Position numbers: made by a program. From NCBI RefSeq assembly GCF_003334385.1, contig NZ_QOWN01000017.1: DNA of 64,000 bases; one strand, 5' to 3'. The DNA comes from Escherichia coli. Its GTDB lineage: Bacteria; Pseudomonadota; Gammaproteobacteria; Enterobacterales; Enterobacteriaceae. How positions within the stretch are numbered: the stretch's first letter is position 1; every line of letters begins with the position of its first letter. Positions 49,301 through 52,300 of the stretch are shown piece by piece.

Positions 49301-52300
49301 CGTCAATGGCGCTCTCCTGTGAATACACCAATAACCCCGATTTATCGATTGCCAACGTTATATCGTTAGTGGAGAACGCAGAATGTCTGAATTAAAAATT
49401 TCCCCTGAATTATTACAAATTTCCCCGGAAGTGCAGGACGCTTTAAAAAACAAAAAACCGGTTGTGGCGCTGGAATCGACCATTATTTCTCACGGGATGC
49501 CGTTCCCACAAAATGCCCAGACCGCAATTGAAGTTGAAGAAACTATTCGTAAACAGGGCGCTGTACCTGCCACGATCGCCATTATTGGCGGCGTGATGAA
49601 AGTGGGGTTAAGCAAAGAAGAAATTGAATTACTGGGTCGTGAAGGGCATAACGTGACCAAAGTTAGTCGTCGCGATTTACCTTTTGTTGTTGCCGCCGGA
49701 AAAAATGGCGCAACCACTGTGGCTTCAACGATGATTATTGCGGCGCTTGCCGGAATTAAAGTATTTGCCACCGGGGGAATTGGTGGTGTGCATCGCGGGG
49801 CGGAACATACCTTCGATATTTCTGCCGATTTGCAAGAACTGGCAAATACTAATGTCACCGTTGTTTGTGCCGGGGCGAAATCTATTCTCGATTTAGGATT
49901 AACCACTGAGTATTTAGAAACCTTCGGTGTGCCGTTAATTGGCTATCAGACTAAAGCGCTGCCTGCGTTTTTCTGCCGCACCAGCCCGTTTGACGTCAGC
50001 ATTCGTCTCGACAGCGCCAGCGAAATTGCCCGTGCAATGGCGGTGAAATGGCAAAGCGGTCTGAACGGTGGCCTCGTGGTAGCGAACCCGATCCCGGAAC
50101 AGTTTGCTATGCCGGAACACACTATCAATGCGGCGATCGATCAGGCGGTAGCTGAAGCTGAAGCTGAAGCTCAGGGAGTCATTGGTAAAGAAAGTACGCC
50201 ATTCCTGCTGGCGCGCGTTGCTGAACTGACCGGCGGTGACAGCCTGAAATCCAACATCCAGCTGGTGTTCAACAACGCCATTCTGGCGAGCGAAATTGCC
50301 AAAGAATATCAGCGTCTCGCGGGTTAATTTCTGACGGGCAGAAAGCCGTCGCCCGTACTCATCAAGCATACCAAAACCTGGCGCTGACGCCGGGTTTACC
50401 GGCATGAAGGGAAAATCATTATGGATATAATGAGAAGTGTTGTGGGGATGGTGGTGTTACTGGCAATAGCATTTCTGTTGTCAGTGAATAAAAAGAGCAT
50501 CAGTTTGCGCACGGTTGGAGCCGCACTGCTGCTGCAAATCGCTATTGGTGGCATCATGCTCTACTTCCCACCGGGAAAATGGGCAGTAGAACAGGCGGCA
50601 TTAGGCGTTCATAAAGTGATGTCTTACAGTGATGCCGGTAGCGCCTTCATTTTTGGTTCGCTGGTTGGGCCGAAAATGGATGTCCTGTTTGACGGTGCGG
50701 GTTTTATCTTCGCCTTTCGCGTACTTCCGGCGATTATTTTCGTTACTGCGCTCATCAGTCTGCTGTACTACATTGGCGTGATGGGGCTGCTGATTCGCAT
50801 CCTTGGCAGCATTTTCCAGAAAGCCCTCAACATCAGCAAAATCGAATCTTTTGTTGCGGTTACTACTATTTTCCTCGGGCAAAATGAGATCCCGGCGATC
50901 GTTAAACCGTTTATCGATCGCATGAATCGCAACGAGTTGTTTACCGCAATTTGTCGCGGGATGGCGTCCATTGCTGGTTCGATGATGATTGGTTATGCCG
51001 GAATGGGCGTACCAATTGACTACCTGTTAGCGGCATCGCTGATGGCGATCCCTGGCGGGATTTTGTTTGCACGTATTTTTAGCCCGGCAACCGAGCCTTC
51101 GCAGGTCACATTTGAAAATCTGTCGTTCAGCGAAACGCCGCCAAAAAGCTTTATCGAAGCGGCGGCGAGCGGTGCGATGACCGGGCTAAAAATCGCCGCT
51201 GGTGTGGCGACGGTGGTAATGGCGTTTGTCGCAATTATTGCGCTGATCAACGGCATTATCGGCGGAATTGGCGGCTGGTTTGGTTTCGCCAATGCCTCTC
51301 TGGAAAGTATTTTTGGCTATGTGCTGGCACCGCTGGCGTGGATCATGGGTGTGGACTGGAGTGATGCCAATCTTGCGGGTAGCCTGATTGGGCAGAAACT
51401 GGCGATTAACGAATTCGTCGCTTACCTGAGTTTCTCCCCATACCTGCAAACGGGCGGCACGCTGGAAGTGAAAACCATTGCGATTATCTCCTTTGCGCTT
51501 TGTGGTTTTGCTAACTTTGGTTCTATCGGTGTTGTCGTTGGCGCATTTTCGGCTATTTCGCCAAAACGCGCGCCGGAAATCGCCCAGCTTGGTTTACGGG
51601 CGCTGGCAGCAGCAACGCTTTCCAACCTGATGAGTGCGACTATTGCCGGGTTCTTTATTGGTCTGGCGTAATGCTCGATTTGTAGACCGGATAAAACGTA
51701 TTAAGCGTTGCATCCGGCAATCGCGCTATTGAAAATAATTTTTACTGCATCATCCCGGAGAATTTATTCTCCGGGTCCATCTCCAGCGCCAGTCCTGACA
51801 ACTGCTTTCTGTTTTTAATGAGATACCCTTTCTTGCTTTTAATTAATAAACCGTCGTGAATGAACTGCGCGAGAACATATAAAAGATGTCGATAAGAAAC
51901 GCCTAAATACTCTGCCGCTTGCGTATGCTTTTCGTGATAAAGATCACCTTCCTGCGAGAGTAATATAAATGCTGCCAGGCGATTCACTAACGGAAATGAT
52001 TGATTCTGAGTTAAAGAAACAATATTACGATAATTTTTATGACTTAAGGTGACGCAGAGTTTTCGTAAAAATAGCGTGTCGTTTAATAACAGCGGACGGT
52101 AATGTTTCATAGGGAGCGCAAGGCACCAACACTCTTCAATAGCCTGCACCGCACGCGGTTCATGGTCTTTATCGATTAACTCAATCTCGCCAATAAAACA
52201 GGGGGCGGCAAAGAAATCGATCAGCGACACGCGACCATTAGCTAGCGTGGCGTAAAGCCTGGCGCGGCCTCGCGTCAGGTAAAACAGCCAGGACGGCTGT

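What the first reader, a model, noticed from the sequence alone, without database searches (positions are those of the whole stretch)
50328..50354. Conserved 27-nt hairpin element upstream of both NupC paralogues
Immediately after the stop codons of psuG (50328-50354) and of rihB (53559-53585) the same element occurs: TTTCTGA[C/T]GGGCAGAAAGCCGTCGCCC. It can fold as a 5-bp stem (GACGG or GATGG pairing with CCGTC); the one difference is C to T, which keeps pairing as a G-U wobble. Downstream leaders diverge but share CATGAAG…AATCA…ATGGAT around the start codon. Conservation of a structured element in front of both transporter genes, in otherwise diverged intergenic regions, suggests a shared cis-regulatory or RNA-processing signal.
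Basis: seen in the sequence. Interest (0 to 1): 0.35.

Follow-up and report, generated by a model that had tools for sequence, protein, structure and literature searches.

The report
Conserved leader hairpin of nucleoside-transporter genes
A short RNA hairpin in front of two duplicated nucleoside-transporter genes of E. coli has been kept by selection in about a dozen related genera, but the conserved stem is not the one first proposed, the near-identity of the two E. coli copies is largely due to copying between them, and what the hairpin does is untested.

Summary
The 27-nt repeat is real: 50328-50354 and 53559-53585 are 26/27 identical, against 48% identity at four-fold sites of the two genes. 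The window is E. coli psuK-psuG-psuT / yeiL / rihB-nupX.

Leaders from 24 psuT-type and nupX-type genes (about 12 genera) show that the conserved stem is (A)CGGGC/GCCCG(T), at 50334-50339 with 50351-50356 and at 53566-53570 with 53582-53586.

- **Conserved stem:** 94-96% of cells pair, three pairs carry compensatory changes, and wobbles fall on the sense strand.
it pairs no better than shuffled controls.

The hairpin (H1) opens a conserved leader: H1, an A/C-rich linker, a second hairpin (H2) and a small hairpin over the AUG. Two lineages lengthened the H1 stem. One replaced H1 with an unrelated hairpin.

The near-identity inside E. coli is inflated by gene conversion: the two copies share only 17/27 bases in Kluyvera and 15/27 in Enterobacter.

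H1 matches no Rfam family, is not a REP element, has no terminator U-tract and has no antiterminator alternative. It is most likely a cis-acting mRNA structure that tunes transporter expression. The mechanism is inferred, not shown.

The parts
50328..50354 (+). It starts directly after the psuG TAA stop codon (50325-50327).
50334..50356 (+). H1 hairpin, psuT copy. 5' arm ACGGGC 50334-50339, 11-nt loop AGAAAGCCGUC 50340-50350, 3' arm GCCCGU 50351-50356.
   Evidence: RNAalifold consensus and pair counts. It is the minimum-energy fold of the 23-mer at -10.0 kcal/mol and of the leader folded from 50334.
53559..53585 (+). It lies 47 nt after the rihB stop codon (53509-53511).
53566..53586 (+). H1 hairpin, nupX copy. 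5' arm UGGGC 53566-53570, loop 53571-53581, 3' arm GCCCA 53582-53586. U53566-A53586 replaces C50335-G50355 of the psuT copy.
   Evidence: Minimum-energy fold in the 121-nt context and of the 23-mer at -8.3 kcal/mol; pair counts.
50357..50370 (+). A/C-rich linker between H1 and H2. The consensus in other genera is AUAUCARRCAUACC. It is missing from the nupX leader of this strain through a deletion.
   Evidence: Mean pairwise identity 0.56 against 0.46 at four-fold sites.
50371..50402 (+). H2 hairpin, CCAAAACCUGGCG-CUGA-CGCCGGGUUUACCGG. It looks like a terminator but has only 3-4 U. It is present in psuT-type leaders and in K. spallanzanii nupX, and was lost by deletion from most nupX leaders, including the one in this window.
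   Evidence: 12 pairs. Arms 0.79-0.85 identical and loop 0.43. Not called a terminator by the scan.
50416..50433 (+). H3, a small A/U-rich hairpin UCAUUAU-GGAU-AUAAUGA that holds the psuT start codon (50421-50423) in its 5' arm.
   Evidence: The 5 nt before the ATG are 100% conserved. The 3' arm is coding sequence, so part of the conservation is a coding constraint.
53524..53557 (+). Hairpin after rihB, AGCCGGGCC...GGCCUGGCU, followed by AUUUCUG. Other genera have species-specific hairpins at the same place.
53588..53622 (+). Predicted hairpin enclosing the nupX Shine-Dalgarno sequence and AUG (53611-53613). It is predicted in this sequence only, and its conservation was not tested.
50421..51671 (+). 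psuT, a CNT-family nucleoside transporter gene and the downstream gene of copy 1.
53611..54861 (+). nupX, a CNT-family nucleoside transporter gene and the downstream gene of copy 2. It is 87.5% identical in protein to PsuT.

Best explanation
The element is the core of a sense-strand mRNA stem-loop, H1. It has a 5-6 bp G+C-rich stem, (A)CGGGC/GCCCG(U), and an 11-nt loop AGnnnGCnGUC. H1 forms the 5' boundary of a conserved untranslated leader belonging to the psuT/nupX clade of CNT nucleoside-transporter genes. The leader already existed when the ancestral transporter gene duplicated, before these Enterobacteriaceae genera diverged, and purifying selection has kept it since.

Shown here:
- The hairpin is conserved, its pairs covary, and its wobble pairs favour the sense strand.
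- It always lies between a co-directional enzyme gene (psuG or rihB) and the transporter gene.
- It folds independently of the downstream hairpins.

Inferred mechanism: H1 acts in cis on the polycistronic transcript as a structural element that sets how much transporter is made relative to the upstream enzyme. It could do this in two ways. It could act as a decay or processing barrier that caps one side of the intercistronic spacer. It could also act as an insulator that keeps the A/C-rich linker and the ribosome-binding region in a defined fold whatever the upstream sequence. It does not appear to act as a switch.

The 26/27 identity of the two E. coli copies comes from patchy gene conversion between the paralogues in Escherichia, laid on top of this older constraint.
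For: Conservation:
- A 19-nt core of constant length lies 25-68 nt upstream of all but one of the 25 psuT-type and nupX-type genes examined, from E. coli (5 strains), E. albertii, 3 Citrobacter, Kluyvera, Enterobacter, Leclercia, Buttiauxella, Klebsiella (2 species), Superficieibacter, Entomohabitans and Dryocola/H11S18. In Entomohabitans psuT an unrelated hairpin takes its place. It is absent from the Serratia/Hafnia outgroup.
- H1 arms are 0.79-0.86 identical and the loop 0.72, against 0.46 at four-fold sites and 0.36 in the 5' flank.

Structure:
- RNAalifold predicts this stem without guidance.
- 94-96% of cells pair. Three pairs carry double changes (C-G/U-A, A-U/G-C, G-C/A-U). The covariation score is reached by 0 of 500 shuffles, and slid controls pair in 33-54% of cells.
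- It is the minimum-energy fold in 23 of 24 sequences, at -7 to -14 kcal/mol.
- Eight G.U wobble cells are seen against one A.C cell, which favours the sense RNA.
- E. coli population variants (GAC, GGC, GGU before GGGC) all keep pairing through wobble.

Structural rather than sequence-specific role:
- Leclercia and E. hormaechei nupX turned the loop into extra stem, giving 10 bp.
- Entomohabitans psuT has an unrelated 14-bp hairpin at the same place, with the linker and H2 kept.
- Serratia and Hafnia have another unrelated long hairpin in the psuG-transporter spacer.

Age of the duplication: the protein tree separates psuT-type from nupX-type genes across genera.

Gene conversion:
- The two copies share 25-26/27 bases in E. 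coli, 17/27 in Kluyvera and 15/27 in E. hormaechei.
- The E. coli nupX copy is closer to Escherichia psuT copies (25-26/27) than to any nupX orthologue (18-22/27).
- The same pattern holds at the 3' ends of the coding sequences.

Specificity: there are two copies per E. coli genome, in 5425 of 5426 genomes. A covariance model finds no further copy in 868 kb.
Against: - No experimental datum links H1 to transcript ends, stability or translation. The genes are poorly expressed in laboratory culture, and one Term-seq/TSS data set lists nothing in these spacers.
- No conserved AU-rich RNase E-type site flanks H1, and the linker has no UU dinucleotide.
- The three central G-C pairs are almost invariant, and several loop positions (G21, U22) are conserved. 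This is more sequence constraint than a purely structural barrier needs, and it hints at a specific partner.
- The covariation rests on about 12 related genera. The shuffle control does not correct for phylogeny.
Confidence: 0.45

Rival explanations
1. H1, perhaps with the linker, is the binding site of a specific trans-acting partner: an RNA-binding protein, a small RNA or a small ligand such as a pyrimidine nucleoside. It would then be a true riboregulator of transporter expression rather than a passive structure.
For: Loop identity of 0.72 is well above the neutral 0.46, whereas the H2 loop is neutral at 0.43. G23 and T24 of the alignment are nearly invariant and invariant, and the central GGC/GCC pairs are almost invariant. 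H2 resembles a weak terminator.
Against: Removing the H1 5' arm leaves H2 intact in 9 of 10 species; in E. hormaechei psuT the H2 stem shortens by two of its weakest pairs and is enclosed by new pairs, so there is no antiterminator alternative. H2 has been deleted from most nupX leaders while H1 stayed. Two lineages rewrote the loop into stem, and one replaced the whole hairpin. No Rfam family matches. No candidate partner gene co-occurs with H1 in all genomes.
Confidence: 0.2
2. H1 is the 5'-terminal stem-loop of a separate transporter transcript. That transcript would start at an internal promoter, or at a processing site, just upstream. H1 would protect it from 5'-end-dependent decay, as the ompA 5' hairpin does.
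For: H1 is inherited with the transporter gene and not with the upstream gene: homology between the paralogues starts at H1. A genomic SELEX study lists an RpoS-holoenzyme binding peak inside psuG, roughly 220 nt upstream of H1 by my conversion of the coordinates (PMC5493296).
Against: No sigma-70-like promoter is found within 480 nt upstream of H1 or in the rihB-nupX spacer. Sequences upstream of H1 are unrelated between the paralogues and evolve neutrally, with 0.36 identity. No TSS is reported there. The SELEX peak is imprecise and distant.
Confidence: 0.1
3. The inverted repeat CGGGC-N11-GCCCG is a DNA operator for a dimeric transcription factor, for example YeiL, YeiI or an unlinked regulator.
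For: It is a perfect inverted repeat with fixed 11-bp spacing in all 24 sequences. Regulator genes yeiL (CRP/FNR family) and yeiI (HTH plus kinase) are adjacent.
Against: Eight G.U cells against one A.C cell show a strand bias that double-stranded DNA recognition would not produce. The conserved 'spacer' positions are asymmetric. Stems were lengthened and a hairpin was replaced by an unrelated one. H1 occurs with nupX where yeiI is absent, and with psuT where yeiL is absent, so neither regulator co-occurs with it. It lies inside an operon with no promoter-like site nearby.
Confidence: 0.08
4. The element has no function. It is only the edge of the duplicated segment, kept similar by gene conversion between the two paralogues.
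For: Homology starts exactly at the element. Gene conversion within Escherichia is evident at the element and at the 3' ends of the coding sequences.
Against: The core and its pairing persist across genera in both paralogue lineages, at 0.79-0.86 identity against 0.46 neutral, including genomes that have only one paralogue and so cannot convert. Compensatory changes are present.
Confidence: 0.05
5. The functional structure is the reader's 5-bp hairpin GACGG/CCGTC with an 8-nt loop.
For: It is the minimum-energy fold of the isolated 27-mers, and of the psuT copy in a 116-nt context in E. coli.
Against: It pairs in 70-75% of cells, equal to the shuffle mean. Pair 11-22 is broken in 13-14 sequences, and only one cell shows a compensatory change. 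It is not significantly stable (z = -1.35 and -0.85). RNAalifold does not choose it.
Confidence: 0.04

Closest known systems
Intercistronic stabilising hairpins such as REP/BIME elements (for example malE-malF, hisJ-hisQ)
   Same: A G+C-rich stem-loop in the untranslated spacer between an upstream gene and a downstream membrane-transporter gene of one operon. The plausible role is setting unequal expression by blocking exonucleolytic decay.
   Different: H1 is not repetitive: there are two copies per E. coli genome, both at this locus. It has no REP consensus. The real REPs of the window (51685-51772, 54927-54974) hit the REP-derived Rfam model and H1 does not. H1 has conserved loop positions and is inherited with the downstream gene.
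Intercistronic or leader attenuators of pyrimidine genes (rph-pyrE, pyrBI)
   Same: Hairpins in the leader of a pyrimidine-related gene. In the psuT copy, H1 begins 6-12 nt after the upstream stop codon, within reach of a terminating ribosome. H2 looks like a weak terminator.
   Different: There is no U-tract after H1 and only 3-4 U after H2. There is no mutually exclusive pairing. In nupX contexts the upstream stop codon lies 19-90 nt away. H2 is dispensable.
Protein-binding RNA hairpins (lambda boxB, BglG/SacY RAT, PyrR-binding loop)
   Same: A short G+C-rich stem with a conserved loop sequence placed in a leader.
   Different: The loop does not resemble these sites (from memory, not tested). 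No cognate protein gene co-occurs. The loop was rewritten in two lineages and the hairpin was replaced in another.
5'-terminal stabilising stem-loops (ompA 5' UTR type)
   Same: A stable hairpin at the 5' boundary of the unit that travels with the gene.
   Different: No transcript 5' end is known or predicted next to H1.
Rfam isrJ (RF01393), the only Rfam hit overlapping the element
   Same: A weak match spans 50324-50398, that is H1 through H2.
   Different: It scores 18.9 bits against a gathering score of 37, with E = 7.5, so it is at chance level.

Membership tests
Any Rfam 15 family | Reaches the family's gathering score with the covariance model | tested here: not met
   the best hit overlapping the element is isrJ at 18.9 bits (gathering score 37, E = 7.5). 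Nothing overlaps the nupX copy.
REP/BIME repetitive extragenic palindromes | Tens to hundreds of copies per genome | tested here: not met
   median 2 and at most 3 places per E. coli genome.: no further copy in 868 kb.
REP/BIME repetitive extragenic palindromes | REP consensus sequence | tested here: not met
   the REP-derived model naRNA4 hits 51685-51772 and 54927-54974 but not the element.
Intrinsic (Rho-independent) terminator | G+C-rich stem directly followed by a U-tract | tested here: not met
   neither H1 nor H2 is called. H1 is followed by GUACUC or AAUAUG.
Transcription attenuator or riboswitch expression platform | Mutually exclusive pairing between a sensor helix and a terminator | tested here: not met
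   H2 is unchanged in 9 of 10 species when the H1 5' arm is removed; in E. hormaechei psuT it loses two of its weakest pairs and is enclosed by new pairs. H2 is absent from most nupX leaders.
Transcription attenuator or riboswitch expression platform | Ligand-dependent or factor-dependent change of structure | not testable with these tools
   Needs in-line probing or SHAPE, or reporter assays.
Conserved structured cis-acting mRNA element (generic) | Conservation above the neutral rate of flanking sequence | tested here: met
   arms 0.79-0.86 and loop 0.72, against 0.46 at four-fold sites and 0.36 in the 5' flank.
Conserved structured cis-acting mRNA element (generic) | Base pairs kept through compensatory changes | tested here: met
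   three of six pairs show double changes, 94-96% of cells pair, and 0 of 500 shuffles reach the covariation score. Phylogeny is not corrected for.
Conserved structured cis-acting mRNA element (generic) | Strand specificity (G.U tolerated, A.C not) | tested here: met
   8 G.U cells against 1 A.C cell.: antisense scores are at most 19 bits against 29-47 bits for the sense strand.
Conserved structured cis-acting mRNA element (generic) | Measurable effect on expression, processing or stability | not testable with these tools
   No transcript end is listed in these spacers in one published data set.
Palindromic transcription-factor operator | Co-occurrence with its regulator gene, and a position at a promoter | tested here: not met
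   H1 occurs without yeiI or without yeiL.: no promoter-like site nearby.
   70-75% of cells pair, equal to the shuffle mean. One pair is broken in 13-14 sequences.

The most novel reading that the evidence does not exclude
H1 together with the conserved A/C-rich linker (and H2 where present) is a small, previously undescribed riboregulator dedicated to the psuT/nupX clade of nucleoside transporters. It would be recognised by a specific protein, small RNA or nucleoside-derived ligand through its conserved loop (AG...GC.GUC) and invariant GGC/GCC stem. It would couple uptake of pseudouridine or pyrimidine nucleosides to their intracellular level.
Probability: 0.12. Interest if true: 0.6.

Novelty: new member of a known kind. 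Interest (0 to 1): 0.3.

Why it matters
PsuT and NupX are poorly understood transporters. No substrate was detected for PsuT, and NupX moves uridine and cytidine only weakly (PMC11241209). Nothing is known about how they are expressed relative to the enzymes encoded upstream.

This work provides:
- a concrete, mutable handle for that question, in the form of a leader hairpin kept by selection in two paralogues and about a dozen genera;
- the correct stem to mutate;
- a clean small example of how gene conversion between neighbouring paralogues can make a noncoding element look more conserved than it is.

This is a modest finding. Conserved intercistronic hairpins are common, and no unusual mechanism is indicated.

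Tried and rejected
Both were counted across orthologues. The first equals the shuffled controls. The second pairs in 60% of cells and is essentially specific to Escherichia.
- **Attenuator model** (H1 3' arm against H2 5' arm). Only 4 bp could form, and folding without the H1 5' arm leaves H2 intact in 9 of 10 species (in E. hormaechei psuT its stem shortens by two weak pairs).
- **Upstream flank pairing with the H1 5' arm.** An 8-bp alternative exists in Buttiauxella and a 6-bp one in E. coli, but it is not general.
- **Leader peptide.** The ATGAAG... upstream ORF is 8 codons long before psuT and 3 before nupX. It shifts frame in one Citrobacter and is absent from Klebsiella and Enterobacter, so it was rejected.
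- **Sigma-54 promoter, SECIS element, boxB, anticodon-like loop.** These were compared by eye only. Spacing or sequence does not fit.
- **Rfam search at E up to 10.** Nothing relevant.
- **Metagenome scan with the degenerate core YGGGCAGTNNGCNGTCGCCCR.** It gave 120 hits. Only one (L159) lies in a rihB-nupX context. None of the other 119 encodes a relative of the seven locus proteins (no tblastn hit at E <= 1e-5), and the 80 listed ones lie on high-G+C contigs (median 65%), so they were taken as chance matches. The scan was uninformative about other genomic contexts.
- **Literature.** No paper describes regulation of psuT or nupX, or an RNA element at this locus. The supplements of one Term-seq paper list no end in these spacers.
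- **One look-up failed.** The contig holding a protein labelled Salmonella could not be fetched.
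Full report
**Locus.** The window around the finding is the E. coli locus psuK (48454-49395), psuG (49383-50327), psuT (50421-51671), yeiL (minus strand, 51742-52440), rihB (52570-53511), nupX (53611-54861) and yeiI (minus strand, 54968-56056). It is 99.87% identical to K-12 MG1655 over 8.5 kb. K-12 carries the same two element copies and has nothing annotated in either spacer.

**The observation.** No other copy exists in the window at up to 3 mismatches, and none arose in 100 shuffles.
- The two transporter genes are 79% identical in DNA but only 48% identical at four-fold degenerate sites. 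Only four tracts of the 1251-nt coding alignment reach 26/27. A 26/27 match in noncoding DNA is therefore far from neutral.
- Homology between the two loci starts at the 5' edge of the element. The nupX leader then has a deletion of about 41 nt relative to the psuT leader, and the two rejoin at CATGAAG...ATGGAT.
- Two details are wrong. The nupX copy starts 47 nt after the rihB stop, behind another hairpin at 53524-53557. The element is also drawn 1-2 nt too short at its 3' end.

**Orthologues.** I collected the leaders of psuT-type and nupX-type genes from the following sources:
- a species-representative genome collection;
- contigs encoding homologues found by protein search;
- divergent E. 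coli genomes;
- one metagenome contig.

A protein tree separates psuT-type from nupX-type genes across genera. The duplication therefore predates the divergence of Escherichia, Citrobacter, Kluyvera, Klebsiella, Enterobacter, Leclercia, Buttiauxella, Superficieibacter, Entomohabitans and Dryocola, and it postdates the split from Serratia and Hafnia. Some genomes have both genes, in two different orders. Others have only psuKGT-yeiI or only yeiL-rihB-nupX.

**The conserved core.** A 19-nt core of constant length, with consensus GGGCAG-NNN-GC-N-GTCGCCC, lies 25-68 nt upstream of the start codon of all but one of the 25 psuT-type and nupX-type genes examined; Entomohabitans psuT, where an unrelated hairpin takes its place, is the exception. 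It is absent from Serratia and Hafnia.

**Which stem is conserved.** RNAalifold on 19 sequences predicts pairing of the two bases before GGGC, plus GGGC itself, with GCCC plus the two bases after it.
- Counted on 19 and then 24 distinct sequences, this stem pairs in 95.6% and 94.4% of cells.
- Three of its six pairs carry changes on both sides: C-G/U-A/U-G, A-U/G-C/G-U and G-C/A-U.
- No shuffle out of 500 reaches its covariation score, and slid controls pair in only 33-54% of cells.
- The single difference between the two copies in the window, C50335 against T53566, is matched by G50355 against A53586.
Its G9-C20 pair is broken in 13-14 sequences.
- The palindrome TTTCTG/CAGAAA is essentially specific to Escherichia.
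- Folded as 23-mers, 23 of 24 sequences adopt the conserved stem as their minimum-energy structure, at -7 to -14 kcal/mol. The exception is the single copy in an E. coli strain whose locus has been broken by IS1.
- Wobble pairs are all G.U on the sense strand: eight cells, against one A.C cell. A covariance model scores the antisense strand far lower.
- E. coli population variants before the GGGC arm (GAC, GGC, GGT) all keep pairing through wobble.

These features point to an RNA hairpin on the mRNA strand and not to a DNA palindrome.

**The hairpin in its leader.** Ten full-length leaders align into four parts:
- H1;
- an A/C-rich linker (AUAUCARRCAUACC);
- a 12-bp hairpin H2 (CCAAAACCUGGCG-N4-CGCCGGGUUU..GG);
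- a small A/U hairpin H3 that holds the AUG.

Mean pairwise identities show which parts are constrained.

| Segment | Mean pairwise identity |
|---|---|
| Four-fold sites (neutral reference) | 0.46 |
| 5' flank of H1 | 0.36 |
| H1 arms | 0.79-0.86 |
| H1 loop | 0.72 |
| Linker | 0.56 |
| H2 arms | 0.79-0.85 |
| H2 loop | 0.43 |
| Five bases before the ATG | 1.0 |

Most nupX leaders, including the one in this window, have lost H2 through a deletion between the short direct repeats CCTGGC and CTGGC, yet they keep H1 (the repeats were read from the sequences). Leclercia and E. hormaechei nupX converted the H1 loop into extra stem, giving 10 bp. Entomohabitans psuT replaced H1 with an unrelated 14-bp hairpin while keeping the linker and H2. 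Serratia and Hafnia have yet another long hairpin in the psuG-transporter spacer. A hairpin at this position is therefore a recurrent, structure-based requirement.

**What H1 is not.**
- No Rfam family reaches threshold. The only overlapping hit is isrJ, at 18.9 bits against a gathering score of 37.
- It is not a REP. There are two copies per genome in 5425 of 5426 E. coli genomes and no further copy in 868 kb searched with the model. The REP-derived Rfam model hits the true REPs of the window but not H1.
- Neither H1 nor H2 passes a terminator scan, and no promoter-like site lies upstream.
- Removing the H1 5' arm leaves H2 intact in nine of ten species; in E. hormaechei psuT its stem shortens by two weak pairs. 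There is no antiterminator logic.
- The small upstream ORF is not conserved.
- Neither neighbouring regulator (yeiL, yeiI) co-occurs with H1 in all genomes.

**Why the E. coli copies are so alike.** The two copies share 25-26/27 bases in E. coli but only 17/27 in Kluyvera, which has the same gene order, and 15/27 in E. hormaechei. The E. coli nupX copy is closer to the Escherichia psuT copies (25-26/27) than to any nupX orthologue (18-22/27). The last 105 nt of the coding sequences behave the same way: 0.90-0.92 identity to Escherichia psuT against 0.78-0.79 to nupX orthologues. This is the signature of patchy gene conversion between the paralogues, which lie 3.2 kb apart. What is deeply conserved is the stem and a few loop positions, not the whole 27-mer.

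**Mechanism.**
- *Shown:* H1 is a sense-strand hairpin under purifying selection. It always lies between a co-directional enzyme gene and the transporter gene, and it folds independently of the other leader hairpins.
- *Inferred:* it acts in cis on the operon mRNA as a structural element that fixes transporter expression relative to the enzyme. It could be a decay or processing barrier, or an insulator that keeps the linker and ribosome-binding region in a defined fold. I put 0.45 on this explanation including the mechanism, and about 0.85 on the structural claim alone.
- *Against a simple barrier:* no conserved RNase E-like site is present. The constraint on the stem and loop sequence is also stronger than a barrier needs, which keeps a specific partner (protein, sRNA or ligand) alive as the main rival at 0.2.

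Published data do not help. One Term-seq/TSS data set lists nothing in these spacers. An RpoS SELEX peak lies inside psuG, about 220 nt upstream. psuG and psuT respond together in one transcriptome. No paper addresses regulation of these genes.

**Verdict.** The feature is real and selected, but it was partly misread by the first stage. It is an undescribed member of a familiar kind, the conserved intercistronic leader hairpin. Interest is modest at 0.3.

Noticed in passing
window 52602 (rihB codon 11): The window has GAG (Glu) where K-12 and nine other rihB genes have Asp, in the DxDxxxDD motif near the N-terminus (LDCEPGHDD against LDCDPGHDD). From memory this is the metal-binding motif of nucleoside hydrolases, so the allele may be impaired.
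   Followed up: partly
window 50150-50155 (psuG): There is an extra GCTGAA unit relative to K-12, giving three tandem copies instead of two. This adds two residues (Ala-Glu) to PsuG.
   Followed up: partly
window 48357-48368 and 48375-48386 (upstream of psuK): A direct repeat CACATGTTTAAA occurs twice, 18 nt apart, in the psuK promoter region. Each copy holds the palindrome ACATGT. It is a candidate operator for the unknown regulator of the pseudouridine operon.
   Followed up: no
window 53524-53557: A strong hairpin (AGCCGGGCC...GGCCTGGCT) lies 12 nt after the rihB stop and is followed by ATTTCTG. Other genera have unrelated hairpins at the same place, so rihB seems to carry its own 3' hairpin in addition to H1.
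   Followed up: partly
window 51567-51662 vs 54757-54852: The 3' ends of psuT and nupX are nearly identical (89.5% over the last 105 nt, 77% at third positions). The nupX end is closer to Escherichia psuT than to nupX orthologues, which indicates gene conversion at this end of the paralogues as well.
   Followed up: yes
L092 and L093 (E. coli SCU-108, EC100), 6838-6947: These strains keep the nupX leader with an intact H1 and the first 66 nt of nupX but have lost the rest of the gene. It is annotated as a partial pseudogene.
   Followed up: partly
L094 (E. coli 13C1065T), 2000-3627: An IS1 element replaces psuG, psuT, yeiL and the 5' part of rihB. The one remaining H1 copy has GCCA instead of GCCC, a G.A mismatch in the stem.
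   Followed up: partly
L083, L084, L089, L002-L005, L081, L082, L085-L088: The two cassettes are arranged differently in different genera.
- psuKGT-yeiL-rihB-nupX-yeiI: E. coli, Kluyvera, Entomohabitans.
- yeiL-rihB-nupX-psuKGT-yeiI: E. hormaechei.
- psuKGT-yeiI only: E. albertii, Citrobacter, K. michiganensis.
- yeiL-rihB-nupX only: Leclercia, Buttiauxella, K. spallanzanii, Dryocola.
   Followed up: partly
L006-L009 (Serratia, Hafnia, Klebsiella sp. BIGb0407), about 1800-2900 and 3880-3935: In these genomes the kinase upstream of psuG carries the N-terminal HTH extension seen in E. coli YeiI, so regulator and kinase may be one protein. The psuG-transporter spacer holds an unrelated hairpin of about 20 bp (CCTGAAAGGTGG...CCTTTCAGG).
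   Followed up: partly
L089 607-642 (Entomohabitans, upstream of psuT): An unrelated, nearly perfect 14-bp hairpin (GGCGCTGTTCCCGG...CCGGGAAACAGCGCT) sits exactly where H1 lies in other genera. The linker and H2 are retained downstream.
   Followed up: partly
L082 3930-3953 (Buttiauxella): The sequence ACTGCCCA just upstream can pair with the H1 5' arm TGGGCAGT, forming an alternative 8-bp hairpin. E. coli has the weaker analogue TTTCTG/CAGAAA. The alternative is not general across genera, but it could matter locally.
   Followed up: partly
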